Shown here piece by piece: positions 1 through 31,327 of a stretch of 64,000 nt of DNA. Source of the DNA: Candidatus Nomurabacteria bacterium. GTDB lineage: Bacteria > Patescibacteriota > Minisyncoccia > Phycocordibacterales > SBAW01. Every line of letters starts with the position of its first letter. Within the stretch, counting starts at the first letter, position 1. The stretch covers positions 213,739 to 277,738 of the forward strand of contig CALQZS010000001.1 in NCBI GenBank assembly GCA_943349945.1, given 5' to 3'. Position numbers and translations under genes: made by a program. A model generated the notes under the pieces. That model ran no database searches, was not told the DNA's origin, and saw only the letters and a program-made list of their open reading frames with translations.

Positions 1-1175
1 ATAACCGGCGTATCTGCCTCCATAGCACTTAGGCGCTTGTTGACCTCCTTTACCGTCGAGGCTACCACCCCTTTGCGTTCGTCGTTTATCGCATTGAGCA
101 CGCGCGCATGCTCTTTTGCCTCCTCTGTTGTTTGACTGCGCAGCAGCATGGCGGCAGTTTCGGGCGAGCCCATGCGCGACGCAGCGTTGATGCGCGGCGC
201 TATCATAAACCCAATATCATCTTCGGTCAGTGTGTGCGGCTTGATGCGCAACAACGCCAAGAGCGCGGCCAAGCCGGGGCGACGGTTGCGGCGCATCACA
301 AGTAGCCCATAGCGAGCGAGCATCCTATTTTCCCCCACCAAGGGAACCATGTCGGACATGGTGCCAAGCCCCACCAAGTCGAGCAGCCATTTTTCCTTGC
401 CTACAATGTATGTACCTGCCGTGCCTGTGGCGCGCATCTTTTGCAGCACCCCTTGGACCAACTTCCACGCCACCCCTGCCCCACAGAGCCCGTCGAAGGG
501 GTATGCGCTGTCGGGGCGTTTGGGATTTATTACTGCAAAAGCAGGCGGAAGATCTGGTACAAGTTGAAGATCTGGCGTAGGCGGAAGGTTATGAGTAATA
601 TCCTCCGCAACAACTTCCCCCACAAAAGTCCTCGGGTCTCCCTCGACCGTCTTCGGACGGTCTTCGGGCCAGACTGTTTGCGTTGGAAGTTGTTGCTTCG
701 TACCGACCAAGTGGTGATCGGTCACGATGACATCTATCCCCTGCTCGTTTGCAAACGCAATAGAGTCGTACTCGGTGGTGCCCAAGTCGACCGTCATCAC
801 CAAAGTGACCCCTTCTTCTTTAAGCTCGGCGAGGCCGCCCACATTGAGCCCGTACCCTTCTTTGTGGCGGTGCGGTATGTAGTGCCGGACAGAGAGCCCC
901 ACGTCGCGCAAAAATTCTGTAAGCAACACACCACCGGGGATACCGTCGCAGTCGTAGTCGCTCCACACCGCCACCTTTTCGCCCTGTGCTTTGGCATGCA
1001 AAATACGGTCGACCGCCTTTTCCATATCAGGCAACAAAAATGGGTCGTGACTGTCGCGGTCGAAGTCGGGCTCCAAAAAACGAGCAATGGCCTCGTCGTC
1101 GGTAATACCGCGAGCGTGGAGCAGGTCGGGAATTAAGTCTTCGTGCGCTCGCTCCCGTACGCGGTATTTTTTCAT
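1..1175 (-). CDS. recJ: Single-stranded-DNA-specific exonuclease RecJ (N-terminal part; gene continues past window start)
   Basis: Own translation of minus strand from ATG (complement of 1173-1175): MKKYRVRERAHEDL...; DHH-family motifs SDYDCDGI and VIVTDHH. Not in the ORF track because it is truncated at the window edge. Confidence 0.7.
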   Translation of the reverse strand, partial: MKKYRVRERAHEDLIPDLLHARGITDDEAIARFLEPDFDRDSHDPFLLPDMEKAVDRILHAKAQGEKVAVWSDYDCDGIPGGVLLTEFLRDVGLSVRHYIPHRHKEGYGLNVGGLAELKEEGVTLVMTVDLGTTEYDSIAFANEQGIDVIVTDHHLVGTKQQLPTQTVWPEDRPKTVEGDPRTFVGEVVAEDITHNLPPTPDLQLVPDLPPAFAVINPKRPDSAYPFDGLCGAGVAWKLVQGVLQKMRATGTAGTYIVGKEKWLLDLVGLGTMSDMVPLVGENRMLARYGLLVMRRNRRPGLAALLALLRIKPHTLTEDDIGFMIAPRINAASRMGSPETAAMLLRSQTTEEAKEHARVLNAINDERKGVVASTVKEVNKRLSAMEADTPV

Positions 1176-1217
1176 CAAATTTAGTATACTAAAGGCTAGC
1201 GACATATGTAAAAAAAA

Positions 1218-1550
1218 ATGGAAAGCTGTATTTTTTGTAAAATAGCGGCTGGAGAAATACCCGCCGACAAAGTATACGAAGACGACATGGTCGTCGCCTT
1301 TTTGGACATCAACCCCAAAGCGCCTGGCCACACCCTGCTTATACCAAAAGCCCACCATCAATGGTTCCAAGATTTGCCCGACGATATATACACCGACCTC
1401 TTTCGTACTGCCAAAAAAATAGCGCAGGATATAAAAATTAAAAACGACGCCGACTATGTACGGCTTGGTATTGTGGGCACCGACGTACCACACACGCACA
1501 TACACCTTGTGCCACAAAAGTTGAGCGACAAAAAAGTCCAAGGACTTTAG
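1218..1550 (+). CDS. HIT-family (histidine triad) nucleotide hydrolase
   Basis: 110 aa; histidine triad HTHIHLV near C-terminus; N-terminal CxxC (CIFCKI) typical of HINT proteins. Confidence 0.85.
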   Translation: MESCIFCKIAAGEIPADKVYEDDMVVAFLDINPKAPGHTLLIPKAHHQWFQDLPDDIYTDLFRTAKKIAQDIKIKNDADYVRLGIVGTDVPHTHIHLVPQKLSDKKVQGL

Positions 1551-2629
1551 TTTTTGAGCACCTCAAGCGCAGGCAAGGTACCGTCGGCCAAAAACTGGAG
1601 CATCGCTCCGCCGCCGGTCGAGACAAACACACGCTCTGCATCAAACTGCATACCCGAAAGTGCAGCGGCAGTATCTCCCCCGCCCACCACCGCTTTGGCC
1701 GTACCGTCGACAAGCGCCTGCGCAAGCAAGCGGGTACCGTCGACAAACCCCTCTTCATAAATCCCTAGAGGACCATTCCACAATACAAATGGTGCTTCTT
1801 TTGTTTTTTGCGCCCACGCAAGTGCTGTGGTTGGGCCTACATCCACCGCGCGCTCGTTGATGCGTATATCGTTGACCAAGGTACTGCGCTCGGCCTTGTG
1901 TGCCACATCGCTCACAATTAAATCAGTAGGCAGTGTGATGCGCTGGTCTGCCGCCAACTCTGTGGGCACCGCATTGTCCGAGACAAAGGACCCGCCCACA
2001 GGGAAGCCGCGAGCCTTGAGCATGTCGTTGGCCAAAGCGCCACCCAGCAACAATTCTCCGTACACAGCCATCAATTTAGTAAACAAGGGTATTTTTGTTT
2101 CAAATTTTGCACCCCCAACCACCGCAATAGCGCCCTGCGGCGGCGTGAGCGCCTGGGTTAGGTGAGCCACTTCGTCGAGCAGTCGCAAGCCAGCGGCGCT
2201 GGGCAAAAGTGTAGGCAACAACACCATAGACGCATGTGCGCGGTGCGAGTTGGCGAAGGCGTCGTTTATATATACGTCGCCCTGTGCAGCAAGCTCTTGT
2301 GCAAAGGCTAGGTCGTTTGCCTCTTCGCGCGGGTCAAAACGCAAGTTCTCGAGCATCTCTATGTTGGGAGACGATACTAGCTCGCGCAAACGCGCCAACA
2401 CCGGCGCCACACGCAAAGAGTCGTCTGCGCCGCTTGGCCTACCCACGTGGGTAAGCACGATAATTTTTGCAGCACCGCGCTCTAGCAAAAGTTGCACCGT
2501 GGGCACCACGGCCTTGATGCGCGCATCGTCTACCACTTTGCCTCCAGCTAGCGGCACATTGCAGTCGGCACGAAGCAGCACCCGCTTACCCGAAACGTCC
2601 ACATCAACAACACTTTTTATTTCTTGCAT
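1547..2629 (-). CDS. pgk: Phosphoglycerate kinase
   Basis: 360 aa; N-term MQEIKSVVDVDVSGKRVLLRADCNVPL matches the PGK signature; overlaps tpiA stop by 13 nt (operon). Confidence 0.9.
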   Translation of the reverse strand: MQEIKSVVDVDVSGKRVLLRADCNVPLAGGKVVDDARIKAVVPTVQLLLERGAAKIIVLTHVGRPSGADDSLRVAPVLARLRELVSSPNIEMLENLRFDPREEANDLAFAQELAAQGDVYINDAFANSHRAHASMVLLPTLLPSAAGLRLLDEVAHLTQALTPPQGAIAVVGGAKFETKIPLFTKLMAVYGELLLGGALANDMLKARGFPVGGSFVSDNAVPTELAADQRITLPTDLIVSDVAHKAERSTLVNDIRINERAVDVGPTTALAWAQKTKEAPFVLWNGPLGIYEEGFVDGTRLLAQALVDGTAKAVVGGGDTAAALSGMQFDAERVFVSTGGGAMLQFLADGTLPALEVLKN

Positions 2630-3372
2630 ATACGCATCAATTCTATGAATGAAGTAACTTCTGTACTCGCCCGCCCCACCAAAAATCCGGAAATATCTCC
2701 CTCGGCAAGCAGCCCCGGCGCATTATGCGCATCCACCGAGCCGCCATAGAGTATCGGTATTTTGATGCCCACCGCACGCCCCAAGAGGTCTGCAAGAGTT
2801 TTGCGTATAAAAATTACCATTTCGCGCAACTCGGCAGGAGGCAATGCTTCGGACGCATCTTTGCCAATAGCCCATACGGGTTCGTAAGCCACCACAACCT
2901 TGGCTGCAGCGGGTTTGCCATTTGCGCCCATAAGCGCCTGCGCAAGTTGCCCCGCCACCACAGAAAAATGGGCACCCGACGGGTCGCGCTCTGTTTCGCC
3001 CACACACAAGACCACCATAAGCCCAGCATTGTGTGCTGCGGCAACCTGCGCCGGCACTAGCGCACCTTCGGTAGCGCGGCGCTCTGAGTGGCCCACAATA
3101 ACCCAAGCAGCCCCTGCAGCCTTGAGCATCACCGCGGAAACCTCGCCGGTATGTTGTGCATCATCAAAAGGCGACACGGTTTGCCCGGCAATTTTTATGC
3201 GGCTCCCCGCAGCGGCTGCAAGCGTCGGCAGGAGCGTAAACGACGGCGCAAGCACTACATCAACGCCAGAGATATTTTGCGCCTTGCGTTTACATGCCGC
3301 TATAAAACGCTTCGCTTCCTCTGGCTTCTCGATATACATCTTCCAGTTACCCACGAGCAACTTCTTTTTCAT
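2617..3372 (-). CDS. tpiA: Triosephosphate isomerase
   Basis: 251 aa; GNWKM N-terminal motif, VAYEPVWAIG active-site region. Confidence 0.9.
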   Translation of the reverse strand: MKKKLLVGNWKMYIEKPEEAKRFIAACKRKAQNISGVDVVLAPSFTLLPTLAAAAGSRIKIAGQTVSPFDDAQHTGEVSAVMLKAAGAAWVIVGHSERRATEGALVPAQVAAAHNAGLMVVLCVGETERDPSGAHFSVVAGQLAQALMGANGKPAAAKVVVAYEPVWAIGKDASEALPPAELREMVIFIRKTLADLLGRAVGIKIPILYGGSVDAHNAPGLLAEGDISGFLVGRASTEVTSFIELMRICKK

Positions 3373-3390: not shown

Positions 3391-5136
3391 CTAGTCCTGT
3401 CCTGCCACTTTGAGCACCTCGTCTATACTGGTTAAGCCTTGCGCAGCCTTGACCACCCCATCCCCCACCAGCGAAAATAGCCCGGACTCTTTTGCTGCCT
3501 CTTGGAAAAGCGCTGCATCAGCTTCGCGCAAGATAAGCTCCTTGAGCACAGCGGAAGTTGGCCACACTTCTTGTAGCCCCAGCGCGCCGCTGTAGCCGCC
3601 TTTGCACTGACCACATGATTTTGCAGTAAAAAACGCGACATCCTTCCATAGTGCTTGGCTGTCGATTTTGTTTTCTGATTTTAAAATAGCGAGCACCTGG
3701 CCCAAGTCGGCATGCGTACTTATTGCATCCATTTGTGCGCGGCCCAGCCTGTGTTGTTCGTTGTTTGGGCAAAGTTTGGGCACCACCGCGGTACCCACAA
3801 CGCAGCGTAGCGCAGAGGCAAGCAACAGCGGCGGCACACCAAGCGTCAACAAACGCTCCAAACCTGCAGCAGCAGACGACGCCTCTATTGCCGCCAACAC
3901 CAGCACACCACGATTTGCCGCCTCGGCGGCAAGCAGCGCCGTGTCGGCATCGTGCAAGTTGGAAACCATCACCACGTCCGGGTCTTGGCGCAGCGCCGCG
4001 CGCAACGCCACCCCAAATGTAAGCCCCATCTCAGGCGCAACAGCTGTTTGTGTTACAAAGGGAAGATACATCTCTATAGGGTCTTCCACTGAGGCAATAC
4101 TTGCCCCGCGGCCGCCAAGCATGTCGAGCAGCGTGTACAACAAGGTGGTTTTGCCCGACTGCCGCTGGCCCGCCACCAACACCAACCCAGACTTAAGCGA
4201 CAGCGCTTGGTGCAACTCGTCGCGTGCTTGCGTGTGGAGCCCTAGCGACTCCAACGTAAAGCCCCGACGACCTCCCTGCTCGGACACCAGCTGCAACACC
4301 ACCTTTTCCCCCGAGGCACCGCCGACCACAACAGGCACCGTGGAGACACGTACCGAAACCTCTGCATCGCCCACCGCTACGCGGAACCTCCCCTCTTGAG
4401 GCAGTGTTGTGCTGAGCGACAACTGGGCCAGCTGTTTGAGCCGCGCCGCAATGCCCGCAAATGCGGCCTTGGGTAATTGCATAGCATCATAGAGCGTCGT
4501 CCCTATCCGGTAACGAAGTAGGAGCCCTTGTTCGCGCGGCTCTAGGTGGACGGCGCTCGCGCCTTGGTATAGCGCGTGGCCAATAAGCGCATCCACCGCG
4601 GAGCGAGTATGCAGACGCTCGGCAAGCACGCCAGGCGTCGCTGCGTCAGCCGCCACAGCGGCTGCATCACGGGCAATATGTGCGCCAAACTGTTCTTTGA
4701 GGTGCCGCTGGTAGTGCAAAAGCGCGCGGGTCATAGACTCGCGGTCGGTCAGGCGAGGCGCGATTTTGTATTTTGTATGTAAATGCAGCTGTTCGAGCGC
4801 AGACAAGTCGGCAATATCAAGCAGCGCCACCTCAAGCACCTCGCCGCGAAGCGCCAAGGCAACCAAACTGTGCCTCCGGGCAAGTGGCTCGGGCACCATA
4901 GCCAGGGCATCGTGCGCAATTTCGTTTGGAGTAAAGCGCACAAAGGGTAGTCCGAGACCACGCGCCATCGCGCGCCGCACCTCATCCTCGCCCAGCGCAC
5001 CCGTCTCGACCAGCACCCGCGAGAGCGGTGTGCCCGACGTCTCTGCTAGCCGCAGTGCAGCATCCAACTGCGAGCGAGACAGCAGCCCCGCGTCGAGTAA
5101 AAAATCTCGCAACCGCTCTTCTTCTGCGTACATCAC
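3391..5136 (-). CDS. GspE/PilB-family type II/IV secretion ATPase homologue with degenerate catalytic motifs
   Basis: 581 aa; GspII_E N-domain; Walker A GQRQSGKTT; Asp box VEDPIE; Walker B region LRQDPDVVMVSNLHD (canonical DPDVIMVGEIRD; catalytic Glu replaced by Asn); His box replaced (LVLAAIEAS instead of LVLSTLHTN); only partial tetracysteine (CGQC retained). Confidence 0.75.
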   Translation of the reverse strand: MMYAEEERLRDFLLDAGLLSRSQLDAALRLAETSGTPLSRVLVETGALGEDEVRRAMARGLGLPFVRFTPNEIAHDALAMVPEPLARRHSLVALALRGEVLEVALLDIADLSALEQLHLHTKYKIAPRLTDRESMTRALLHYQRHLKEQFGAHIARDAAAVAADAATPGVLAERLHTRSAVDALIGHALYQGASAVHLEPREQGLLLRYRIGTTLYDAMQLPKAAFAGIAARLKQLAQLSLSTTLPQEGRFRVAVGDAEVSVRVSTVPVVVGGASGEKVVLQLVSEQGGRRGFTLESLGLHTQARDELHQALSLKSGLVLVAGQRQSGKTTLLYTLLDMLGGRGASIASVEDPIEMYLPFVTQTAVAPEMGLTFGVALRAALRQDPDVVMVSNLHDADTALLAAEAANRGVLVLAAIEASSAAAGLERLLTLGVPPLLLASALRCVVGTAVVPKLCPNNEQHRLGRAQMDAISTHADLGQVLAILKSENKIDSQALWKDVAFFTAKSCGQCKGGYSGALGLQEVWPTSAVLKELILREADAALFQEAAKESGLFSLVGDGVVKAAQGLTSIDEVLKVAGQD

Positions 5137-5180: not shown

Positions 5181-7649
5181 CTACTGTTCGATATAACTTG
5201 GAAGCAAGTTCACCACTGCGCTTGCAGAGTTAGACCCGTAGGCATTGGTACAGGTGAGGGTGAAGGTAGTCTGCGCATCCAGGGGACCAGAGTCTACATC
5301 AGCGCCAGAGAGTGCCGTACTAGAGAATCCGTTTTGTCCGGTTACGGAACATGAGATTGCGTCGGTAGTAGACCAGTCGAGTTTGGTGGACGTATCTTTA
5401 CGCACACGCGTTGGGTCGGCACTAAGAGAAATAGTTGGCAAACATTGCGTGTCTGATGGTGCTGCGACACTACAGGAGCCGTTGCACATCACCGTACCAG
5501 AACTTGTTTGGCCACAGACGTTTGCGCCGGAAGTGCATGAGTTGCCGTAGGTGGCAGGCACAGGTGGCACCGTTGCCGAGCAATTGCAGCCCGAGTCGTA
5601 AGTACCAGTGGCATAGTTGCAGGCATTTGAAACACTACAAGCAGCTCCAACGGTGCAGGCTGCCGTCACATTCACATCGGTCCATCCACCACAGTTGTTT
5701 GCTTCGTTTGACTCGGCAATGACACCTACGGTGTCGCCGCTATAGGATTTGTCGGCACAGACGCGGATGCCGTAGGTGCCAGCTGCAGGGAAGGTGTAGG
5801 ACTGGGTAGCTATGCCACTACCCCACGCAGTCAAGGCAGACATGTTGGAAGCAGCTAGGTCGGTGATGACCTCTGCAGCGTGGGCGATGTTAAAGAGTTT
5901 GGTAAAGATGTTATGTGGAGCAGTGGCTGTGGTGTTGCTGCGTACTTGGTAGAAGTTTTGGAAGCCAATGTTGGTAGAGCCACCTCCTGTGTTGGTGACT
6001 GTGGCAGAGAAGGTGGTGGGGGTGCCTGCAACTGCACTAGTAGGGGTGATGCCCGAGACCGTGAGGTCTGGGGTACCTCCACAAGAAAAAACAGGTGTAT
6101 TACCAGAAACATTCCAGTTTACAGGGTCCCCGGGGTGCACCCACGCGCTATACAAAGCGTTTGGGGTGGTGGGTACAGTTATGGATGTGCCAGAGTAGTT
6201 GTCTATATAGCAAACACGGGGATCCGCACTCCATGACGTCCATCCGCTTGCGCAGCTCTCTGTAGTTGGTCTGTAGTAGCGTGGATAGAATTTGGTAGCA
6301 CCAGCTGGCGTTGACCATGAAAGGACTGCGGATGTTCCTCCAGCGTTACAAGAGGCGGTCATTGTAGGGGCTGTGAGTGCCGTACAAGAAAACGATGACA
6401 TGTTTGCTGTCCAATTTACTGTACCGCCTACATTAGTGTGCACCCAAGTAGAATAGGTAACACCAGGAGTGATGCCCGAAAGGTAAGCGTAGGTTTCTGC
6501 AATATTATCTTTGTAACAACCGTATTCCCAATGTGTCCACCCAGCAGGACACGAAGAAAGGTTAGCGCTTACTCGCGGATAATAGGTAGCGCCAGAGACA
6601 GGGCTCCATGAGAGCGTAACGCCAGTACCACTTCCATCACACGCCGCATACACTGATGGATTACCAGCTGCTGGCGGCGCACATGCGCCATCCCCTGCGC
6701 GCAAGTACTGGTACTGTACTGGGCTGGTGTTGCTGTACTGCCACCATTGCCAGTTGTTGCCGTTGGGGTCGCTGCCGCCAGTACAGTAAGGGGTCCAGGT
6801 TATTGCAACCGGAGCTGGTACAACGTAGTACGTACGCTGACTCAATGGTGTACCCCAACTTGCACCATCATATCCAGATACAGAGAATATATATTCTCCT
6901 ATTGGCAAGTTGTACACTAAATTACCATTAGAATCTGCGACAGGGCCGTGGATATTTGCCCCTCCTTGCCACCAAGAGGTACCCGCCGCTTGCACAACTG
7001 AATATTGGGCATTTTGTGTACTCCAGCTTACCGTCGCTTGGCAAGTAGTTGCACCCGGAGCAGCGACACAAGGGCTGCTTGGATAGACAGAGAGGTTCCC
7101 GCTTACTTGAGCGGCTGGTTGGTTTGCCGGCGGCGCACAACTGACCGCAGTAAAGGAGTATCGTTCGTATGTATAGCCAGAGTTATTGCCCAATACCCAA
7201 ATCTGGTACCCAGCACCTCCGGTGAGAAGGCTTGAAAAAGACGACGACCCCGAACAAGGTACGCTGGAACCGAGAGATTGTACGAAGTTGCCCCCACCGT
7301 CGTGCAAGTTTATCCGAAGGCTACTGTCGCCGTTACTTTCACAACTAGGTGAATGACCAGATGCCGCTGTTTCGTTCCAAGAAAAAGATAGGTTGTTGCG
7401 CCCAGACCCATCACAACTAGGCCCTAAACTACCAAAACATGCAGCAACCCCCTGCCCTAGGCCAATTTGCTCAGGAGCCAAACTCACCACAGAAGCACGT
7501 TCTGATACAAACGCACCTGCAAAAACTAAACAAAAGGCAACAGTAGCCCCCGCCGCCATAAACTGTGGCTTTTTTATCAAAACAGAGGGGCGTACTATTT
7601 GCAGGAAAACTTTTTTACTGCGCTGCAAATATGTATTAAATTTTGTCAT
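5181..7649 (-). CDS. Large secreted cell-surface protein with FN3-like and CARDB-like Ig-fold repeats; Cys/Trp/Gly/Ser/Thr-rich
   Basis: 822 aa; hydrophobic signal-like segment MAAGATVAFCLVFAGAFV (alternative start at 7559); motifs GVTLSWSPVSGATYYPR (FN3-like), DLTVSGITPTSAVAGTPTTFSATVTNTGGGST (CARDB-like); two tandem ~75-aa internal repeats (YYPRVSANLSSCPAGWTHWEYGCY... / KFYPRYYRPTTESCASGWTSWSADPRVCY...). Ends 4 nt from the upstream TPR gene. Confidence 0.6.
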   Translation of the reverse strand: MTKFNTYLQRSKKVFLQIVRPSVLIKKPQFMAAGATVAFCLVFAGAFVSERASVVSLAPEQIGLGQGVAACFGSLGPSCDGSGRNNLSFSWNETAASGHSPSCESNGDSSLRINLHDGGGNFVQSLGSSVPCSGSSSFSSLLTGGAGYQIWVLGNNSGYTYERYSFTAVSCAPPANQPAAQVSGNLSVYPSSPCVAAPGATTCQATVSWSTQNAQYSVVQAAGTSWWQGGANIHGPVADSNGNLVYNLPIGEYIFSVSGYDGASWGTPLSQRTYYVVPAPVAITWTPYCTGGSDPNGNNWQWWQYSNTSPVQYQYLRAGDGACAPPAAGNPSVYAACDGSGTGVTLSWSPVSGATYYPRVSANLSSCPAGWTHWEYGCYKDNIAETYAYLSGITPGVTYSTWVHTNVGGTVNWTANMSSFSCTALTAPTMTASCNAGGTSAVLSWSTPAGATKFYPRYYRPTTESCASGWTSWSADPRVCYIDNYSGTSITVPTTPNALYSAWVHPGDPVNWNVSGNTPVFSCGGTPDLTVSGITPTSAVAGTPTTFSATVTNTGGGSTNIGFQNFYQVRSNTTATAPHNIFTKLFNIAHAAEVITDLAASNMSALTAWGSGIATQSYTFPAAGTYGIRVCADKSYSGDTVGVIAESNEANNCGGWTDVNVTAACTVGAACSVSNACNYATGTYDSGCNCSATVPPVPATYGNSCTSGANVCGQTSSGTVMCNGSCSVAAPSDTQCLPTISLSADPTRVRKDTSTKLDWSTTDAISCSVTGQNGFSSTALSGADVDSGPLDAQTTFTLTCTNAYGSNSASAVVNLLPSYIEQ

Positions 7650-7652
7650 ATA

Positions 7653-8453
7653 CTACTTCTTTGCTTGAGCTAGAGATAAATTTGCCTCTATTGCAGCTTG
7701 GAAAGCTTTGATGCTTGCCTCTATCGAGGCTGGGTCGTTGCCCGAATATGCTCGGTGCCATTGTTTTGGGGTCACCTCGCGAGCCAACGCAAGAGCTTGT
7801 GTAAAAGAAGCTTCCGCGTCTACATAGTGTAACCTGTTTAATTGCGCCAACCCCAAAGAATTCCACAACCAGGGGATATCTTTTGCCTCCGGTACTTTTA
7901 TAAAAGCATCTTGGATAACAGCTTCTGATTCTGTGTACTTGCCCTCTTTGGCTAATACGAATGCCAAATCGTTGTATCCACCCCACTCTGCAGGCGCCCA
8001 AGCAACAAAATTTCTAAAATCCTCCTCCGCTGCAGACAGGTTGTTTAGACTTATATACGTAAGCCCGCGCACATATAGGGAGCGTGGGTTGTAGGGGAAC
8101 AAAATTAATTCTGCATTGATATGTGCGAGCGCTCTATCAAGCTGGCCGTCCACAAAATAGATACGCGCCAGCTGGTAGCGCACCAATTGCGTCGCCGGGT
8201 CCAGCTGCAGCGCCAGTTCATATGACGCGGCAGCTTTGCGCAAGTTGTATTCCCCACCGCCAAAGTAGTAGTTGCCTAGTTGCGCCGCCAACGCGGCATC
8301 TGAGTGATTGAGGTAGTACGCAGCCGTTGGTGAGTGAGTATATACAAAACTGGCCACAAACTTTTGAAACGAAGGCGGCGCAACCCACCAAACTACCACC
8401 AAAAGACATAGGGCAAACAAAAATAAGAAAGCGTATGTGCGGCGGCGCATCAC
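7653..8453 (-). CDS. Membrane-anchored TPR-repeat protein
   Basis: 266 aa; N-terminal TM (AFLFLFALCLLVVVWWVA); TPR-like repeats (YELALQLDP..., ARIYFVDGQLDRALAHINAEL...). The annotated start is GTG; an ATG follows 3 nt later. Confidence 0.65.
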   Translation of the reverse strand: MMRRRTYAFLFLFALCLLVVVWWVAPPSFQKFVASFVYTHSPTAAYYLNHSDAALAAQLGNYYFGGGEYNLRKAAASYELALQLDPATQLVRYQLARIYFVDGQLDRALAHINAELILFPYNPRSLYVRGLTYISLNNLSAAEEDFRNFVAWAPAEWGGYNDLAFVLAKEGKYTESEAVIQDAFIKVPEAKDIPWLWNSLGLAQLNRLHYVDAEASFTQALALAREVTPKQWHRAYSGNDPASIEASIKAFQAAIEANLSLAQAKK

Positions 8454-8550
8454 ACTACCTAGTGTACGCTATATATCAGCAACAAAAAGTGGAAAACTAC
8501 AAATGAGAAGACCCAACGCCGCGAGTGCAACGTTGGGTCTTGTGCCGGAA

Positions 8551-8896: not shown

Positions 8897-8925
8897 ATCT
8901 TAGCATGTTAAGCAAATTTTGTCAA
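8897..8925 (-). promoter_or_regulatory. Sigma70-like promoter (TTGACA-17-TAAGAT) for the 8551..8841 gene
   Basis: Read on minus strand: ttgaca + 17 nt + taagat, ~50 nt upstream of the start codon. Confidence 0.4.
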
Positions 8926-9678: not shown

Positions 9679-10152
9679 ATGCGTATTTTGTTCGCACTTA
9701 GCATGCTGTTGCTCCCGAGCCTCTCTTGGGCGCAGCAGTACACACCGATCCCCAAGGGGAAGCAGTGCTTTGCACTGCTCGGAGAAGAGCGCGCCCCGCC
9801 CGGAGTGGCGACAATGAGCCCATCCACCGTTCCTGGTCGAGGTTCCGTCTTGATGTCGTTTGAAGAAAACGGCACCGTTCGGCTCTACTTCAAGCGCTCG
9901 ATCGACCCGTACAATGCGGCATTAAGCGGAAAACCTTTCAATGAAGTCGCCCGGTCAATGATAGACCGGGGAAACCGTCCCATCACTCAGATGGACCGCT
10001 GGCTTTCATTCGACCACGGCACAGCGGATCCGAGCAACGAACAAACGTACCAGGTTACCATAGGGCCAGATGGTGGCCCTCTCGGGCGAGCGATTTCTCG
10101 CAACGGGCAATTCTCGGTAACCAAACCACTATGTCAGTCCAAGATCGGCTGA
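9679..10152 (+). CDS. Small secreted protein (signal peptide MRILFALSMLLLPSLSWAQ)
   Basis: ATG at 9679 with AAGGAGAAAG Shine-Dalgarno; consensus promoter upstream; no recognisable domain. Confidence 0.55.
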   Translation: MRILFALSMLLLPSLSWAQQYTPIPKGKQCFALLGEERAPPGVATMSPSTVPGRGSVLMSFEENGTVRLYFKRSIDPYNAALSGKPFNEVARSMIDRGNRPITQMDRWLSFDHGTADPSNEQTYQVTIGPDGGPLGRAISRNGQFSVTKPLCQSKIG

Positions 10153-10162
10153 ACATGGCACG

Positions 10163-10197
10163 AAATCGCCGGCGCACCCATGTGCGACCGGCGATTT
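10163..10197. terminator. Bidirectional hairpin terminator between convergent genes
   Basis: aaatcgccgg...ccggcgattt 10-bp stem followed by ttttttctt. Confidence 0.5.
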
Positions 10198-11476
10198 AAC
10201 TTTTTCTTACAAATAAATTTCTCCAGTTTTGTTTTTTATTTTCACCTAAACTTTCGTTTGGATACAGTATGTTTTTTAACACAGCCACCAACCTATCAAC
10301 ATCAGATCTTTCGTTATACACATAAAAACTAGCCCGACACACACCAGCAGTATCTATTGTTTTGACCAATGGCATAGCGCAATGATACCCTCCTCTACTG
10401 GAAATGTGCTGCTTGCCCAAGGCTTGAGTTACTTGCATCGACGTAACGTCCCTCACAACAAAAGACACTATACCGATATTTTTTTGCTCATTCTTTTCAG
10501 AAACAATTGTAATTTCTGGTATACGACTCAGAGACTCTGTGCAATATTGCACTAAATCTTGCACATGAGACGAAATAGACTCAATCCCTAAAGACTCTAT
10601 GTATTCTACGGCTGCGGCCAAGCCGATCGCCCCCGCAATATTTGGTGTACCCGCCTCAAAACACATAGGAGAATCTCGATATATCGTTTCTTCTGGCGAA
10701 ACACTCTTGATAGCTCCGCCACCACTAAAAATTGGCTGCAATTTAGCAAATATGTCTTTTTTGCCGTACAAACCTCCTATGCCTGTAGGACCGAGCATTT
10801 TGTGACCTGAAAAAAATAAAAAATCGCAGCCTAGTGTTTGTACATTCACGTCCACATGCCCTATCGCAGTAGTTGCATCAACTATAGTTACTGCACCACA
10901 CTCTTTTGCTTGTCGTATAATCCTCTGGACATCATATATTGTGCCCAAAACATTACTTGCCAAAGGTATGGCTACAATTTTGGTTTTTGAACTTATTAGA
11001 TTTTGTGCAACATCATAATCTAACTCTGTACCCTTCAGAGGAATGAGTTGCATCTTTGCTTTTGTCCGCTTAGCTAACTCTTGGAATGGAATAAAGTTTG
11101 AATGGTGTTCTGAAACACTAACAACAATGCCGTCGTGCGGTGTAAGATTTAAAAACTTTTCAAGCATCAGCACGAGCATGTTTAACCCCAAAGTAGCACC
11201 GGGAGTAAACACCATCTCCTTTGTCTCTGCATGAATAAACTTAGCCACCGTAGCACGTGCCTGTTCATAGGCATGTGTTGCCTCCACGCTGAGCGCATGC
11301 GGCCCACGGTGAACATTTGCTCGGTAGTTAAAGTAATAATCATTCATAGCCTCCACCACTTGCTGTGGGGTTTGCGACGATGCCGCAGAGTCCAAATACA
11401 CAAGACTTTGTCCATGTGTATCTTTATAGTTTTTAAAGATAGGGAAATCTTTTTTAATTGTTCCGACGTTTATCAT
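10196..11476 (-). CDS. Cysteine desulfurase, class V aminotransferase (SufS/NifS family)
   Basis: PLP-lysine motif SGHKMLGPTGIG; N-term MINVGTIKKDFPIF...LVYLDSAASSQTP aligns with SufS starts; the track ORF extends 12 codons further to a GTG at 11512. Confidence 0.8.
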   Translation of the reverse strand: MINVGTIKKDFPIFKNYKDTHGQSLVYLDSAASSQTPQQVVEAMNDYYFNYRANVHRGPHALSVEATHAYEQARATVAKFIHAETKEMVFTPGATLGLNMLVLMLEKFLNLTPHDGIVVSVSEHHSNFIPFQELAKRTKAKMQLIPLKGTELDYDVAQNLISSKTKIVAIPLASNVLGTIYDVQRIIRQAKECGAVTIVDATTAIGHVDVNVQTLGCDFLFFSGHKMLGPTGIGGLYGKKDIFAKLQPIFSGGGAIKSVSPEETIYRDSPMCFEAGTPNIAGAIGLAAAVEYIESLGIESISSHVQDLVQYCTESLSRIPEITIVSEKNEQKNIGIVSFVVRDVTSMQVTQALGKQHISSRGGYHCAMPLVKTIDTAGVCRASFYVYNERSDVDRLVAVLKNILYPNESLGENKKQNWRNLFVRKS

Positions 11477-11589
11477 AAAATGCCTGCAATGGTCACAGTG
11501 TACACTAGCCATTTCTTAATCACACAGGGCACGGACCGTGATATGTTTTAGATTTGTAGAACTGCTTTATATATCCTAAACTTATCTCT

Positions 11590-13023
11590 ATGGGCCGTGT
11601 TTTTGAATATCTTCAAGTGGTATTGTTCAAAAAAACTCTTTCACGGTACGCAAAACTACTTCCAAAAGATTTTTTCACAACTACCACTACTAAAAAAACT
11701 GAATTATATAAAAATTTACTACGTGCAGAAATAGAAACAATTAAACAACTCCAAAAAGAAGAGTTTGAATTTGTCAAAAAAATACAACTTCTTCGCTTAA
11801 GAGAAGTGCTTGTGTTAGCCGCACAGACAAGGTGGTGGAACAATTACTTTCTGCAAAAGAAAGTTGCTTGGAAACGTATTGCTACTTTTGATGACTTACA
11901 AACTATCCCACCTATCACCCGCAACAATATTGTGGATGTAGAAAAAAAGGACCTTCTACTACTAGAGGCTAACGACCCCTCATTACTGTGGCGCAGCTCC
12001 AGCGGCAGTACGACAGGCACCCCTGTCGTGTGGGGTTTAAATAAAACAATTCTAATCTTAAACGTATTAGCAAGTTTATTAATACAACTCGAAAAAAGAG
12101 GTTTTTTACTTAGCGCAAATCTGAATCATAAATTTTGCCTCCACTACAATATGTTTATGACAGCCGACAAGCATGCTTTTAAATGGTTTGCTCAACCGGA
12201 CTTCCATATCCCCAACCACAGCAGTGACCGTCGTAAAAAAACTATAGAGCTAAGTTTAATTATTGCTCAAACGCAAAATCTAGTCCTTTTTACCAGTCCT
12301 AACGAATTAATTTCCCTGGTAGACTCTTTTAGAGATATTGGCGATCGACCCCATATACCTTTTATTATTACAGTTGGCTCTCCGCTACCTCCACACGTTC
12401 GTGACACCACAACGCAGTACTTCCACTCTCAAATATTTTCTTTCTACGGCGCACAAGAAACAGGACCCTGTGCAATAGAGTGCGTAAACGTTAAGGACGC
12501 CTATCATGCATTATCAGACCGAATAATTTTAGAGCTCCTTGATGAACACAATCGGCCCGTAAAAGAAGGCGAAGCGGGATTAATTACCGTAACCTGTCTG
12601 GACAACACCGTTATGCCACTTATCCGATACCAACCAGGTGACTGGGGAGTGTTCGTTTCTAACTCTCTGTGCACATGCGGCAATCACTTTCCTTTATTTA
12701 AAGTACTGGAGCGCACCACCGACGTGGTTACTTTTAGCACCGGAGAGCGTCTGTCTATAGTCCCAATTTTAAGATTTTTTAACAGACCTCCTTATATTTC
12801 TTTTGTGAGGCGCTTTCAGATCGAACAAGATCGACACGATCACATCATTGTGAGACTTGAAGTTAAAAAACTATTATCTGAAACCGCCATAACTAGACTT
12901 CACGAAAGAGTTGGGCGTATTTTTAAAGGCAAACTTCAGGCAGATGTTGTGCAAACCACAAACCTTACGCAAGAAAACCCAAAATTTAGAGTATTTATAC
13001 CCTTAAAAACACCGCGACCTTAA
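11590..13023 (+). CDS. PaaK/CapK-like adenylate-forming enzyme (phenylacetate-CoA ligase superfamily)
   Basis: 477 aa; AMP-binding P-loop-like SSGSTTGTPV; strongly AT-rich compared with flanks. Confidence 0.5.
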   Translation: MGRVFEYLQVVLFKKTLSRYAKLLPKDFFTTTTTKKTELYKNLLRAEIETIKQLQKEEFEFVKKIQLLRLREVLVLAAQTRWWNNYFLQKKVAWKRIATFDDLQTIPPITRNNIVDVEKKDLLLLEANDPSLLWRSSSGSTTGTPVVWGLNKTILILNVLASLLIQLEKRGFLLSANLNHKFCLHYNMFMTADKHAFKWFAQPDFHIPNHSSDRRKKTIELSLIIAQTQNLVLFTSPNELISLVDSFRDIGDRPHIPFIITVGSPLPPHVRDTTTQYFHSQIFSFYGAQETGPCAIECVNVKDAYHALSDRIILELLDEHNRPVKEGEAGLITVTCLDNTVMPLIRYQPGDWGVFVSNSLCTCGNHFPLFKVLERTTDVVTFSTGERLSIVPILRFFNRPPYISFVRRFQIEQDRHDHIIVRLEVKKLLSETAITRLHERVGRIFKGKLQADVVQTTNLTQENPKFRVFIPLKTPRP

Positions 13024-14090
13024 TTTACGACTATCCCAAGTTTATCTAAAAAAACTCTAAACTCTGGGGAAATTTTAGCCAGCTTGATTGCTACCATTTT
13101 ATTGAAATTAGTATCAGGAACGTTCTTTAGGTTTGCAAAAAAACGCAACTCCTCTGACAAAGGATCAGCATCTGCAAAAGGCTGGAGAATAGCACGTATA
13201 TCCTCTTCTCTATTCAATTGAGATGAAACAAGATTTGCATTATAAAAACGAGCGCGCCAAATAATTATAGATGGGTTTTTATCTTGTCCTGTCGCTTTAG
13301 CAGTATCAAAAACCAGAGCATAGGCATCTTCTGCCTCTTTTACTGATTCTGCGGGTGATCCGAGCAAGAAAGAAATACGACCCAACGATACAGCTCTGTG
13401 GTAATATCCATGGACAAGAATTGATGGTGAATAAATCGACTCATCGTGGCGAGAATCCCCATCTTTCACATATTTCATCATCATCTCTGCGGTTTCTTTC
13501 GGATCCGCAGCAGTGGGATTACTTACACTTAAAGATGCGTACTGATGCGCAATTGAATATTCTGCCCACGACGTTGGGTATGTATCGTCTGAGTATTTAA
13601 GCAACGCAAGGTATGCAGCGCTGACTTTTTGCGCCTCGGTACCTTCTGCTGGCACAAAGGCATTATATGGAGCTTCGCTAAAGTGAATTTGGTAGAAGGA
13701 TAGACTCGAGTCGTTTACAAAACGGGCAATACTGTTGAGCGCCTGGGCGCGCCACGCAGCAGGTATTGAGTAGTCGTTCACTACTTCTTTTAAGGTTTTG
13801 ATTGCTTGGGTGCGGTCACCGCTTTGGTTTCTAAACCAATAACTCACCCCAAGTAGGATTTTGAGCCGTCCAAATTCTGATTTATTTGGCGCCTGAGCAA
13901 TAAGGGTCGGCAGGTTATTAATGGAAGCCGCATAGTCTCCCGACACAAACGTATCGTACGCAGCCCTAGCATCAGCTTGATATGTGTTGCTTTGTTGAGG
14001 CATGTAAAATCGCATGTAGTATATATACCCGAAAACAACAGCCCCTGAAAGTATTAAGGCGAGCAGTAGTAGAGTGTAACGTTTTCCCAT
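13020..14090 (-). CDS. Membrane-anchored hypothetical protein (AT-rich gene)
   Basis: Start MGKRYTLLLLALILSGAVVFGYIYYM (ATG at 14090 inside the longer track ORF); a single N-terminal TM followed by a large soluble domain. Confidence 0.5.
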   Translation of the reverse strand: MGKRYTLLLLALILSGAVVFGYIYYMRFYMPQQSNTYQADARAAYDTFVSGDYAASINNLPTLIAQAPNKSEFGRLKILLGVSYWFRNQSGDRTQAIKTLKEVVNDYSIPAAWRAQALNSIARFVNDSSLSFYQIHFSEAPYNAFVPAEGTEAQKVSAAYLALLKYSDDTYPTSWAEYSIAHQYASLSVSNPTAADPKETAEMMMKYVKDGDSRHDESIYSPSILVHGYYHRAVSLGRISFLLGSPAESVKEAEDAYALVFDTAKATGQDKNPSIIIWRARFYNANLVSSQLNREEDIRAILQPFADADPLSEELRFFANLKNVPDTNFNKMVAIKLAKISPEFRVFLDKLGIVVN

Positions 14091-14103
14091 AAATATTATC
14101 AGG

Positions 14104-14373
14104 TTAACAAGGACTTTCGCTATCACCAGCACCTTCTGGAGAATCTGATTCACACGCATCACCTTCACCCCCGCCAGCACCAACACCTTCAGCTGATGTG
14201 TTTGTACTGGGGAAGTCTGCATGAGCTGTATTGAGCCCAAAATCTTTTGCCAGTTTTTCCTGTTCTTGTGGGTCAGACTGTGTAAACCTCGCAACCAATC
14301 CACCAAAAAAGACAAGTGCTGTAAGCGCACTGAGTGAAACAAATCGGAGTGATAGTTGTAGTAGGCTTCTCAT
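14104..14373 (-). CDS. Small secreted acidic protein (hypothetical)
   Basis: 89 aa; N-terminal hydrophobic segment, acidic Gly/Glu/Asp-rich C-terminus; 13 nt upstream of the next gene. Confidence 0.35.
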   Translation of the reverse strand: MRSLLQLSLRFVSLSALTALVFFGGLVARFTQSDPQEQEKLAKDFGLNTAHADFPSTNTSAEGVGAGGGEGDACESDSPEGAGDSESPC

Positions 14374-14426
14374 ATATTGTTTAGTGTAGCAGGCTGGCTA
14401 CTATTGAACACCCAACTATCCCCACC

Positions 14427-28513: not shown

Positions 28514-28550
28514 AGTCCCGCGACCACAAAAGTGGGGCAGGACTTGGACT

Positions 28551-28739
28551 CTATTGAGCAGTTGTGCGTTTGGTGTGCACAGGTTCGACGTTGTGTATGC
28601 CGGTAATAGTGTGTATTGCCGGGCAACCACTACAATCCCCCACCGAGCAATTTCTGCAGTTTTCTCCACGCGTCATTTGTATTGCAAGCAATGGATCATC
28701 TGGATCGCCCCGAAGGACGCCTGGAGCAGATTTGCTCAT
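28551..28739 (-). CDS. Possible small Cys-motif protein (CRNC...CSGC)
   Basis: 62 aa; GGGAGA-like RBS upstream; no homology recognisable; low confidence. Confidence 0.2.
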   Translation of the reverse strand: MSKSAPGVLRGDPDDPLLAIQMTRGENCRNCSVGDCSGCPAIHTITGIHNVEPVHTKRTTAQ

Positions 28740-28887
28740 ATTATTTTCTCCCTACAAGGTACGAGTCATCCGGAGAACTGTATAAAAAAGCCTTTTGCTT
28801 GTCAAACGCAGAAAATAAAAAAGGACGAGCTGTGGAAATTCACAGACCCGCCCAAAATTGACCTTGCCCAAATTAATTATCGGACTT

Positions 28888-29076: not shown

Positions 29077-29082
29077 CATTTC

Positions 29083-30101: not shown

Positions 30102-30143
30102 TGTTTACTCCTTTTGCGTACAGAACGACTCATCCAAAAACAA

Positions 30144-31300: not shown

Positions 31301-31327
31301 GTGAAATGTATATTGCGAACTATTTTG

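What the first reader, a model, noticed from the sequence alone, without database searches (positions are those of the whole stretch)
3391..5136. GspE/PilB-family ATPase with substituted Walker B glutamate and lost His box: probable pseudo-ATPase
Family membership is clear from the N-domain, Walker A GQRQSGKTT, the Asp box VEDPIE and the retained CGQC. However, the canonical DPDVIMVGEIRD is DPDVVMVSNLHD here (catalytic Glu replaced by Asn), the His box LVLSTLHTN is LVLAAIEAS, and only half of the tetracysteine Zn site remains. These residues are required for ATP hydrolysis in secretion ATPases. The gene may therefore encode a regulatory or structural paralogue rather than a motor. No pilC, pilT, pilM or prepilin peptidase genes are adjacent.
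Basis: partly seen in the sequence, partly recalled or inferred. Interest (0 to 1): 0.55.

Follow-up and report, generated by a model that had tools for sequence, protein, structure and literature searches.

The report
Orphan catalytically dead PilB-like ATPase
This gene encodes a pilus-motor (PilB/GspE) look-alike that has lost the residues needed to burn ATP and its pilus partner genes, yet is kept by selection across a large group of ultrasmall Patescibacteria, so it probably works as a non-motor regulator or scaffold.

Summary
It is on the minus strand (3391-5136), and 3 of 4 zinc cysteines remain, not 2. The 581-aa protein has the full PilB/GspE fold with an intact P-loop (GQRQSGKTT) and Asp box. 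Gap-free alignments to solved PilB structures put Asn at the catalytic Glu and Val/Glu at the two His-box histidines.

This is not a one-off. It belongs to a monophyletic clade (60/60 NJ bootstraps; at least 106 clusters at 50% identity) in Saccharibacteria-like Patescibacteria. In that clade every hydrolysis residue is relaxed, even the Walker A Lys (K in about two thirds).

The gene is under purifying selection: dN/dS is 0.084, against 0.065 for the adjacent tpiA and pgk.

In all 12 degenerate loci examined the gene is an orphan between nusA and tpiA-pgk. In Paceibacteria and Nomurabacteria the same slot holds a canonical pilB-pilC-pilin operon. The gene is therefore a retained remnant of a lost pilus operon.

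Most likely it is a hydrolysis-independent, probably nucleotide-binding, scaffold or regulator. Its partner is unknown.

Cultured Saccharibacteria have an orphan GspE gene, essential in Tn-seq, that may be its orthologue. I could not test this. I found no published description of the clade.

The parts
3391..5136 (-). Degenerate PilB/GspE-family gene (581 aa from GTG 5136; called start ATG 5133, 580 aa = P0001)
4696..5115 (-). N-terminal MshEN/GSPII (N1) domain, aa 8-147. The hydrophobic skeleton is kept, but most polar c-di-GMP-contact residues (G, Q, second R) are absent.
   Evidence: Pfam MshEN 52 bits; NF053729 38.9 vs 38; motif check against PMC5013675
4144..4170 (-). Walker A / P-loop GQRQSGKTT (GxxxxGKT kept; canonical GPTGSGKTT)
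4072..4089 (-). Asp box VEDPIE (kept in this member; only the first Glu is invariant in the clade)
3949..3984 (-). Degenerate Walker B DPDVVMVSNLHD (canonical DPDIIMVGEIRD): catalytic Glu to Asn393, Gly to Ser392, Arg to His395
3871..3909 (-). Degenerate His box GVLVLAAIEASSA (canonical GHLVLSTLHTNSA): His to Val411, His to Glu418. The preceding Thr is replaced by Arg409, a clade-specific conserved gain.
3592..3774 (-). C-terminal zinc-knuckle region: LCPNNEQ (1 of 2 Cys) ... SCGQCKGGY (2 of 2 Cys). It includes the clade-invariant R466 and W497-K498.
2617..3372 (-). tpiA (triose-phosphate isomerase), 18 nt downstream of the ATPase gene, probably co-transcribed
1547..2629 (-). pgk (phosphoglycerate kinase, 360 aa), overlaps tpiA by 13 nt; last gene of the unit
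1218..1550 (+). HIT-family gene, convergent with pgk. It closes the ATPase-tpiA-pgk unit and separates it from recJ.
   Evidence: same gene in relatives
1..1199 (-). recJ (5' part; runs off the window), followed off-window by rnhA and comEC. Part of the conserved frame.
5181..7649 (-). 822-aa membrane-anchored, Cys/Ser/Thr-rich surface protein with CARDB/fn3 domains, 44 nt upstream of the ATPase gene. Present upstream in some relatives only.
7653..8453 (-). TPR protein with an N-terminal transmembrane segment; first gene of the possible unit
8897..8925 (-). Sigma-70-like promoter match (TTGACA-17-TAAGAT with TG) upstream of the TPR gene. This is a consensus match only.

Best explanation
The ORF encodes a full-length PilB/GspE-fold protein whose hydrolysis machinery has been dismantled while the rest of the protein is maintained.

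SHOWN:
- The P-loop and Asp box are kept. The catalytic Glu is Asn, both His-box His are lost, and the Thr before the His box is Arg.
- It belongs to a monophyletic, large and old clade of Patescibacteria (Saccharibacteria and relatives). In that clade all canonical hydrolysis residues are free to vary.
- The clade descends from the pilB of a pilB-pilC-pilin operon that sat between nusA(-ppa) and tpiA-pgk-recJ-rnhA-comEC. That operon is still there, with a canonical pilB, in Paceibacteria and Nomurabacteria.
- In the degenerate clade pilC and the pilins are deleted. The ATPase gene stays as an orphan directly upstream of tpiA-pgk.
- The gene is under purifying selection but evolves much faster, relative to nusA, than the canonical PilB does.

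INFERRED:
- It no longer acts as a motor.
- This member still binds a nucleotide (GxxxxGKT, Asp-box Glu, N2-domain Arg residues).
- It oligomerises like its relatives.
- It acts through protein contacts. It would use its N1 domain, as conserved as in canonical PilB and the domain that binds GspL in 4PHT, and its N2/CTD surfaces.
- It would dock on a PilM/PilC-type platform of pilus machines encoded elsewhere in the genome, as a regulator, placeholder or adaptor for the true motors.
For: - Motifs and fold.
- Clade-wide relaxation. Walker A Lys is K in 54/79 and 67/106. The Walker B Glu position is D/E/S/N/A and others. No His-box His appears in any member. About 80 positions invariant in canonical relatives are relaxed, and these include the catalytic-site motifs.
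- Features still conserved in the clade: P82-E83-P84..R87 of N1, R208/R210, G249, E351, R379, the Zn cysteines, and the clade-specific R409, R466 and W497-K498.
- Monophyly: 60/60 NJ bootstraps for the main clade, 53/60 including intermediate forms.
- Size: 106 of the best 150 representatives at 50% identity are degenerate.
- Selection: dN/dS 0.084 at dS 0.85, uniform over domains; tpiA 0.065, pgk 0.064.
- Rate: mean pairwise identity is ATPase 0.44 vs NusA 0.71 in degenerate loci, against PilB 0.61 vs NusA 0.61 in the single canonical pair (L009/L010) that has both proteins.
- Score gradient against TIGR02538: canonical CPR 516-540 bits, intermediates 427-472, degenerate 211-317.
- Synteny: 12 of 12 degenerate or intermediate loci are orphans next to tpiA-pgk. 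The canonical loci L009 and L010 have pilB-pilC-pilins in the same frame; in L011 pilC and the frame were seen by tblastn only. PilC is found by tblastn in 56 canonical loci and in none of the degenerate loci or the window.
- Precedents for hydrolysis-independent roles. M. xanthus PilB signals without ATPase activity or pilus assembly (PMC5544727). Walker-box-dead V. cholerae PilT still works together with PilU (PMC11656802).
Against: - No activity, binding or interaction data exist. The partner is a guess.
- I could not show that this genome carries canonical PilB, PilT or PilC elsewhere. Only 64 kb plus ~9 kb further flank of a 424-kb contig were visible, and the contig-length trick failed.
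- Close relatives have Asp at the catalytic position (P0002 SDLRD), which could support weak catalysis.
- Walker A is intact here, so slow hydrolysis cannot be excluded.
- The conserved gene order is part of a ~20-kb collinear core region. Adjacency to tpiA-pgk or comEC therefore says little about function.
Confidence: 0.6

Rival explanations
1. It is still a working ATPase motor that uses non-canonical residues (for example Glu418, Glu405 or Asp396 as base, and Arg409 in place of the His-box contacts). It would power an unknown process.
For: Walker A GxxxxGKT, both Asp-box Glu and the N2-domain Arg residues are intact in this member. An acidic residue at the second His position is common in the clade, at 53/79. 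Arg409 is a conserved gain, at 86%. Selection is strong.
Against: No replacement residue is conserved across the clade. The catalytic position toggles N/D/S/A even among the closest relatives (P0001-P0009). Walker A Lys is lost in about a third of members. From my own knowledge of the field (Chiang et al. 2008, listed as ref. 21 of PMC11656802; not read here), mutating Walker B Glu or His-box residues inactivates PilB, PilT and PilU. There is no platform protein or pilin nearby.
Confidence: 0.15
2. It is an accessory of the DNA-uptake or processing route (ComEC, RecJ), a ComGA-like organiser left over from an ancestral competence pilus. It would act without hydrolysis.
For: The ancestral pilB-pilC-pilin operon and its degenerate remnant lie next to recJ-rnhA-comEC in every locus that extends far enough. 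CPR bacteria use type IV pili together with ComEC for transformation (PMC10633639).
Against: A convergent HIT gene separates the ATPase-tpiA-pgk unit from recJ. The whole region is collinear core genome. In S. epibionticum comEC is dispensable while the orphan GspE-family gene is called essential, and there the orphan gene, recJ and tpiA are unlinked. That argument holds only if that gene is the orthologue.
Confidence: 0.12
3. It is a dedicated cyclic-di-GMP (or other nucleotide second-messenger) receptor that signals through its MshEN domain, the ATPase body serving only as an output scaffold.
For: The MshEN domain is detected. The NCBIfam c-di-GMP motif domain scores just above its cut-off, 38.9 vs 38. 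The N-domain matches V. cholerae MshEN 5HTL at E 2.7e-12.
Against: Of the six key residues per 24-residue motif (PMC5013675), motif I keeps 4 (G to R, Q to A). Motif II keeps 1 strictly (R to P, G to S, Q to G). In the clade and in canonical CPR PilBs the R, G and Q positions are not conserved. The words diguanylate, GGDEF and PilZ do not occur in the annotation tables of S. epibionticum. No GGDEF or EAL gene is in the window.
Confidence: 0.07
4. It is a decaying pseudogene or functionless remnant that has not yet been deleted.
For: It has lost its catalytic residues and its operon partners. It also evolves faster than the canonical PilB relative to NusA.
Against: The reading frames are intact in more than 100 divergent clusters. 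dN/dS is 0.084. Many positions are invariant, including clade-specific ones. The position has been stable across deep divergence (NusA down to 63% identity). These are very small genomes, where useless genes are quickly lost (general knowledge).
Confidence: 0.02

Closest known systems
Canonical type IV pilus / type II secretion assembly ATPases (G. metallireducens PilB 5TSH, G. sulfurreducens PilB 5ZFR, T. thermophilus PilF 5OIU/6F8L, Vibrio GspE 4PHT/1P9R)
   Same: Same domain order (MshEN/N1, N2, CTD with zinc knuckle). 28-31% identity over about 400-500 columns, Foldseek E 1e-35 to 1e-30. The P-loop, Asp box and PQ(D/E)GR motif are kept.
   Different: Catalytic Glu to Asn, both His-box His lost, Thr to Arg before the His box, one zinc Cys lost. 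No pilC, pilM or pilin neighbours. Scores 317 bits against the PilB equivalog model (cut-off 675.65).
Paceibacteria/Nomurabacteria-type PilB in the nusA ... pilB-pilC-pilins ... tpiA-pgk-recJ locus (loci L009, L010, L011)
   Same: Nearest canonical relatives (about 40% identity). Same chromosomal slot, hence positional orthologues. Same N-terminal xLxxFLxDxGL motif.
   Different: They keep GPTGSGKTT, MVGEIRD and GHLVLSTLHT, and are followed by pilC and pilins. They are at least as conserved as NusA (0.61 vs 0.61, one pair), whereas the degenerate clade is far less so (0.44 vs 0.71).
Orphan GspE/PulE-family genes of cultured Saccharibacteria: SEML1_0527 (S. epibionticum ML1) and TM7x_02335 (N. 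lyticus TM7x)
   Same: Third GspE-family gene outside the T4P loci. SEML1_0527 is 540 aa, has no KEGG orthology, and scores Pfam T2SSE 3e-71 (the window's protein 4e-74; the two locus-encoded PilBs 1e-95 to 1e-97). It is flagged as a core and Patescibacteria-enriched family and called GD/ES/ES in Tn-seq. TM7x_02335 is expressed and rises in the recovery phase.
   Different: Orthology is NOT tested, because I had no access to those sequences. SEML1_0527 is not next to tpiA or recJ, and no MshE-type subdomain was parsed in it. Neither paper mentions motif loss.
Hydrolysis-independent roles of pilus ATPases: M. xanthus PilB as an EPS signalling protein; Walker-box-dead V. cholerae PilT cooperating with PilU
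   Same: Both show that a PilB/PilT-fold hexamer can act as a signal or adaptor without hydrolysing ATP (PMC5544727; PMC11656802).
   Different: Those are engineered mutants, or second functions of working motors inside pilus loci. Here the loss is natural, ancient, clade-wide and accompanied by loss of the operon.
Archaeal FlaH/ArlH (RecA/KaiC-like ATP-binding, hydrolysis-poor partner of the archaellum motor FlaI); from my own knowledge, not checked here
   Same: An analogy in logic: a nucleotide-binding, non-hydrolysing protein that modulates a PilB-superfamily motor.
   Different: It is a different fold family, encoded inside the archaellum operon, and not derived from the motor itself.

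Membership tests
GspE/PilB/PilT secretion-ATPase superfamily (Pfam T2SSE PF00437) | T2SSE domain above the gathering score | tested here: met
   249.8 bits vs 24.9, residues 180-575
GspE/PilB/PilT secretion-ATPase superfamily (Pfam T2SSE PF00437) | N2 domain plus RecA-like CTD fold | tested here: met
   AF2 pLDDT 88.3; Foldseek probability 1.00 to 4PHT, 5OIU, 5TSH, 5ZFR
GspE/PilB/PilT secretion-ATPase superfamily (Pfam T2SSE PF00437) | Walker A GxxxxGK[ST] | tested here: met
   GQRQSGKTT. In the clade, K in only 54/79 and 67/106.
GspE/PilB/PilT secretion-ATPase superfamily (Pfam T2SSE PF00437) | Asp box with two conserved Glu | tested here: met
   VEDPIE. In the clade only the first Glu is invariant.
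GspE/PilB/PilT secretion-ATPase superfamily (Pfam T2SSE PF00437) | Atypical Walker B hhhhGE with catalytic Glu | tested here: not met
   VVMVSN: Ser392-Asn393 in gap-free alignments to three solved PilBs
GspE/PilB/PilT secretion-ATPase superfamily (Pfam T2SSE PF00437) | His box with two His | tested here: not met
   GVLVLAAIEAS: Val411 and Glu418. No His in any of 72 main-clade members.
GspE/PilB/PilT secretion-ATPase superfamily (Pfam T2SSE PF00437) | Tetracysteine zinc site of the PilB/GspE branch | tested here: not met
   3 of 4 Cys (CPNN ... CGQC). 19/72 clade members keep all four; 0/39 canonical CPR relatives do.
Type IV-A pilus assembly ATPase PilB (NCBIfam TIGR02538 equivalog) | Score at or above the curated cut-off | tested here: not met
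   317 vs 675.65. Calibration: canonical CPR PilBs also fail, but at 516-540; intermediates score 427-472.
Type IV-A pilus assembly ATPase PilB (NCBIfam TIGR02538 equivalog) | Encoded with pilC, pilM, pilins or the prepilin peptidase | tested here: not met
   None in 64 kb plus ~9 kb beyond the left end
Type IV-A pilus assembly ATPase PilB (NCBIfam TIGR02538 equivalog) | ATP hydrolysis driving pilin polymerisation | not testable with these tools
   Needs a biochemical assay and genetics
MshE-type c-di-GMP receptor (MshEN domain) | MshEN/GSPII fold at the N-terminus | tested here: met
   PF05157 52 bits; 5HTL E 2.7e-12
MshE-type c-di-GMP receptor (MshEN domain) | Two tandem 24-residue motifs RLGxxLLxxGLLxxxxLxxxLxxQ | tested here: not met
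   Motif I: R L R..G..L..L..A (4 of 6 key residues). Motif II: P L S..G..V..M..G (1 of 6 strictly). NF053729 is borderline, 38.9 vs 38.
MshE-type c-di-GMP receptor (MshEN domain) | High-affinity c-di-GMP binding | not testable with these tools
   Needs ITC or DRaCALA
Pseudoenzyme (pseudo-ATPase) derived from an active family | Loss of catalytic residues, shared by a clade | tested here: met
Pseudoenzyme (pseudo-ATPase) derived from an active family | Maintained by purifying selection | tested here: met
   dN/dS 0.084. One pairwise comparison only (window vs L089).
Pseudoenzyme (pseudo-ATPase) derived from an active family | Absence of catalytic activity | not testable with these tools
   Needs an ATPase assay of the recombinant protein

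The most novel reading that the evidence does not exclude
The dead PilB is a core and possibly essential component of Saccharibacteria and related Patescibacteria, orthologous to the essential orphan SEML1_0527. It would be a retired pilus motor turned into a nucleotide-state sensor or adaptor that gates the working type IV pilus machines (or another envelope machine) on which the epibiotic lifestyle depends. Its co-transcription with the ATP-yielding lower glycolysis genes tpiA-pgk would then link pilus activity to the cell's energy state.
Probability: 0.25. Interest if true: 0.75.

Novelty: new variant of a known kind. Interest (0 to 1): 0.55.

Why it matters
- Type IV pili are essential for the epibiotic life of cultured Saccharibacteria, and their control is unknown.
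- A naturally dead PilB, vertically inherited and under selection, would be a ready-made handle on hydrolysis-independent functions of secretion ATPases. So far these are known only from engineered mutants.
- It is a clean evolutionary case of a motor surviving the loss of its machine.
- Practically, these proteins are annotated 'PilB', 'GspE/PulE' or 'T2SS protein E'. They have probably contributed to claims that these bacteria have a type II secretion system or extra pilus motors. Motif-aware annotation would correct that.

Tried and rejected
1. Rosetta-stone idea. The ~1000-aa CPR proteins that score highly with the clade profile looked like fusions of a degenerate and a canonical module. 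Both halves turned out canonical, so they say nothing about heteromers.
2. Co-occurrence with a canonical PilB in the same genome. I compared 'longest_contig' values between hits of a canonical Saccharibacteria PilB and hits of the degenerate clade. No match, so this is unresolved.
3. The single genome-contig scan with the clade alignment was flooded by canonical PilBs. It still gave the key canonical loci L009-L011 and one named Saccharibacteria locus (L025).
4. Linking the window's protein to SEML1_0527 through a shared AlphaFold-database hit (A0A7W4EAJ4) was not possible, because the afdb50 library was unavailable.
5. The listing of cluster members gave almost no organism names.
6. Strict and loose prepilin-motif scans of all six frames of the window found nothing.
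7. Reading the TPR and CARDB genes upstream as functional partners was rejected as a general feature. They are present only in some relatives.
8. One long operon down to comEC was rejected. A convergent HIT gene (1218-1550, +) lies between pgk and recJ; the public gene call had swallowed it into an over-long recJ.
9. Literature searches for a described degenerate PilB/GspE clade found none. The 2024 PilB review does not mention one.
Full report
**1. What is there**

The finding's coordinates hold one ORF, on the minus strand. It runs 5136 to 3391 and gives 581 aa from a GTG; public gene calls start one codon later at ATG, giving 580 aa = P0001.

Family assignment is clear:
- Pfam assigns T2SSE (249.8 bits) and MshEN (52 bits).
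- The best NCBIfam model is type IV-A PilB, at 317 bits against a cut-off of 675.65.
- An AlphaFold2 model built on 40 clade members has mean pLDDT 88.3.
- The model matches Vibrio GspE (4PHT), T. thermophilus PilF and Geobacter PilB at Foldseek E 1e-35 to 1e-30.

**2. The motifs**

phmmer alignments to T. thermophilus PilF (6F8L), M. xanthus PilB (3JC8) and G. sulfurreducens PilB (5ZFR) are gap-free from the P-loop through the His box.

| Motif | Canonical | Here |
|---|---|---|
| Walker A | GPTGSGKTT | GQRQSGKTT |
| Asp box | EDPVE | EDPIE |
| Walker B | DPDIIMVGEIRD | DPDVVMVSNLHD |
| His box | GHLVLSTLHTNDA | GVLVLAAIEASSA |

- The P-loop consensus and the Asp box survive.
- The catalytic Glu is Asn393. 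The Arg of EIRD is His395. Both His-box histidines are gone.
- In the model, the strand VVMV and the strand LVLAAIE sit where the Walker B and His-box strands sit in the family.
- One correction: three of the four zinc cysteines remain (CPNN ... CGQC), not two.
- The zinc site is also a poor marker of decay. The nearest canonical relatives have lost it completely (0/39), while the degenerate clade keeps 3-4 Cys in most members.

**3. It is a family, not an accident**

Among the 120 best homologues, 78 (plus the window's own protein, 79 in all) lack both His-box histidines, 40 are canonical and 2 are mixed. In the degenerate set:
- the Walker B Glu position is D/E/S/N/A and others;
- the Gly before it is G/S/D/A;
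- the Arg of EIRD is free;
- the Walker A Lys is Lys in only 54/79;
- about 80 positions that are ≥90% conserved in the canonical relatives are relaxed, among them the Walker A, Asp-box, Walker B and His-box motifs.

Other parts stay conserved:
- the N1 domain (PEPxxR), as conserved as in canonical PilB;
- the linker and the N2-domain RxR and PQEG motifs;
- E351, R379 and the zinc cysteines;
- clade-specific residues: Arg409 in place of the canonical Thr, R466 and W497-K498.

Phylogeny and size:
- A neighbour-joining tree recovers the main degenerate clade in 60/60 bootstrap replicates.
- The clade including a few intermediate forms (His box lost, GEIRD still present) appears in 53/60.
- An exhaustive profile search of 1.84 billion cluster representatives gave, among the best 150, 106 degenerate, 13 mixed and 11 canonical sequences, plus 19 longer than 700 aa, most of them ~1000-aa tandem double ATPases.
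- The family therefore holds well over a hundred clusters at 50% identity.

**4. It is under selection**

I compared the window with the closest relative whose DNA I could fetch (L089, 88% aa identity).

| Gene | dN/dS |
|---|---|
| ATPase | 0.084 (dS 0.85, even across the four domains) |
| tpiA | 0.065 |
| pgk | 0.064 |

The protein nevertheless evolves fast for a PilB. In degenerate loci it averages 44% identity where NusA averages 71%. In the one canonical pair with both proteins (L009/L010), PilB and NusA are both 61% identical. Scores against the PilB equivalog model form a gradient: canonical CPR 516-540 bits, intermediates 427-472, degenerate 211-317.

**5. Genomic context and origin**

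In the window the order on the minus strand is:
- TPR protein (membrane-anchored);
- 822-aa CARDB/fn3 surface protein;
- the ATPase gene;
- tpiA, 18 nt downstream;
- pgk.

A convergent HIT gene (1218-1550, +) follows, then recJ, with rnhA and comEC beyond the window edge. No other T2SSE gene, PilC, PilM, prepilin peptidase or prepilin motif occurs in the 64 kb or in the ~9 kb visible beyond the window's left end.

All twelve degenerate or intermediate loci I could inspect have the same frame: nusA-ppa ... ATPase-tpiA-pgk-(HIT)-recJ-rnhA-comEC. This holds down to 42% identity and to NusA identities of 63-67%. The ATPase gene lies 12-52 nt upstream of tpiA in ten of them.

The decisive comparison is with three canonical loci from the genome scan: L009 (Paceibacteria), L010 (Paceibacterota) and L011 (Nomurabacteria). 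They share the same frame. There the ATPase is canonical (GPTGSGKTT, MVGEIRD, GH..STLHT). In L009 and L010 it is followed by pilC (T2SSF, 185-187 bits), one to three N-methyl pilins and a large protein before tpiA-pgk-recJ. In L011 the frame and pilC were seen by tblastn only.

tblastn with these PilC proteins finds a neighbour in 56 canonical loci and in none of the degenerate loci. The degenerate gene is therefore the positional orthologue of the pilB of an ancestral pilB-pilC-pilin operon. In its lineage the partners were deleted and the hydrolysis residues were released from constraint. His-box loss is shared by all members and looks like the first step.

**6. Whose genome**

- Source names on the homologues are 'Patescibacteria group', 'Paceibacterota' or simply 'bacterium'.
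- One member (P0078 = L025) lies in a GTDB genome titled 'uncultured Candidatus Saccharibacteria'. Its local gene order matches the window and its NusA is 83% identical to the window's.
- The window is thus most likely from a Saccharibacterium.
- The intermediate forms come from more distant relatives.

Saccharibacteria MAGs in the same scan carry canonical PilBs of another type (584-960 aa, about 30% identical to the window's protein) next to pilC. These are very conserved: the top 120 hits are all ≥74% identical. I could not show that the window's own genome has them.

**7. Literature**

- The detailed study of TM7x pili lists PilB1 and PilB2 with conserved Walker boxes in two loci. It does not mention a third ATPase (PMC11623550).
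- A TM7x transcriptome paper names an extra 'gspE', TM7x_02335, outside all four pilus loci and up-regulated in the recovery phase (PMC10768705).
- The S. epibionticum Tn-seq tables list three GspE-family genes. Two are in T4P loci. The third is the orphan SEML1_0527: 540 aa, no KEGG orthology, Pfam T2SSE only 3e-71, flagged as a core and Patescibacteria-enriched family, and called GD/ES/ES, that is essential (PMC10633639). The main text does not discuss it.
- These orphans are good candidates for orthologues of the window's protein. I had no access to their sequences, so this is a lead, not a result.
- Searches for a described degenerate PilB/GspE clade found nothing. The 2024 review of PilB cofactors has none.

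**8. How it most likely works**

Shown:
- loss of the hydrolysis residues;
- maintenance of fold and surfaces;
- purifying selection;
- loss of the operon partners.

Inferred:
- the protein is not a motor;
- this member still binds nucleotide, given the P-loop, Asp-box Glu and N2 arginines;
- it acts by protein contacts.

The N1 domain is the part that binds GspL in 4PHT, the best structural match. PilB is reported to bind PilM and PilC (ref. 23 of PMC11656802, cited but not read). N1 is as conserved here as in working PilBs. This is why I favour docking on a PilM/PilC-type platform elsewhere in the genome, as a regulator, placeholder or adaptor.

There are precedents:
- M. xanthus PilB signals to EPS production without ATPase activity or pilus assembly (PMC5544727).
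- Walker-dead V. cholerae PilT still supports retraction through PilU.

**9. Rival readings**

- **c-di-GMP receptor: unlikely.** The two 24-residue MshEN motifs keep their hydrophobic skeleton but lack most of the R/G/Q residues, here and throughout CPR PilBs. The S. epibionticum annotation tables contain no diguanylate cyclase or PilZ terms.
- **A role in DNA uptake: possible.** It rests only on conserved neighbourhood within a collinear core region, and a convergent HIT gene intervenes.
- **Residual catalysis: not excluded for this member.** The clade-wide pattern argues against it as the selected function.
- **Pseudogene: excluded**.

**10. Verdict**

The protein is a member of the PilB/GspE superfamily by fold and domain content, but it fails the defining catalytic features of the family and the PilB equivalog test. 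It is best filed as a new, apparently undescribed, catalytically degenerate variant: a retained orphan of a lost pilus operon. Its partner and role remain to be found.

Noticed in passing
proteins P0104, P0260, P0267, P0272, P0274, P0276, P0285, P0291, P0308, P0316, P0317, P0325, P0331, P0338 (not in the window): About 1000-aa Patescibacteria proteins are tandem fusions of two PilB-like ATPase modules. Each module has its own Walker A, and in nearly all proteins both modules also show a GE(I/V)R(D/S/N) Walker B and a His box (regex matches incomplete for a few). This would be a covalent double motor.
   Followed up: partly
window 10000-14400: GC drops to 0.41-0.42 against about 0.52 around it. 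The stretch holds a SufS-like cysteine desulfurase (10196-11512, -) and two ORFs of 477 and 440 aa with no Pfam hit. It lies next to a rhodanese (14427-14912, -) and a YcaO (14941-16356, -). It may be an acquired sulfur-transfer or peptide-modification cluster.
   Followed up: no
window 52925-60996: A run of large ORFs (497, 294, 777, 938 and 167 aa) has no Pfam family at E ≤ 0.001.
   Followed up: no
window 1-1550 / L001 13635-15773: The public gene call for recJ (712 aa) is over-long and swallows a bona fide HIT-family gene on the opposite strand (window 1218-1550, +; Pfam HIT 86.6 bits). Relatives have a ~600-aa RecJ and a separate HIT gene.
   Followed up: yes
alignment (canonical CPR PilBs P0019-P0103): Canonical Paceibacteria-type PilBs have lost the tetracysteine zinc site entirely (0/39 complete). 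The catalytically dead clade retains it in part or in full (19/72 complete, 64/72 with the second CxxC).
   Followed up: partly
window 36737-37840 (-) and 27209-32597: A tyrosine recombinase (phage-integrase family) lies about 4 kb from a loose group of four tRNA genes (Gly-TCC, Pro-TGG, Gly-GCC, Arg-TCG). I did not check for an integrated element.
   Followed up: no
window 8508-8541 (-): A 15-bp G+C-rich perfect hairpin lies between the promoter-like site (8897-8925) and the start of the TPR gene (8453). It has a weak T tail; its function is unknown.
   Followed up: no
window 1547-2629 (-): The phosphoglycerate kinase is short (360 aa; 332-413 aa in relatives, against about 395 aa typical). 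The Pfam match is split into two stretches.
   Followed up: no
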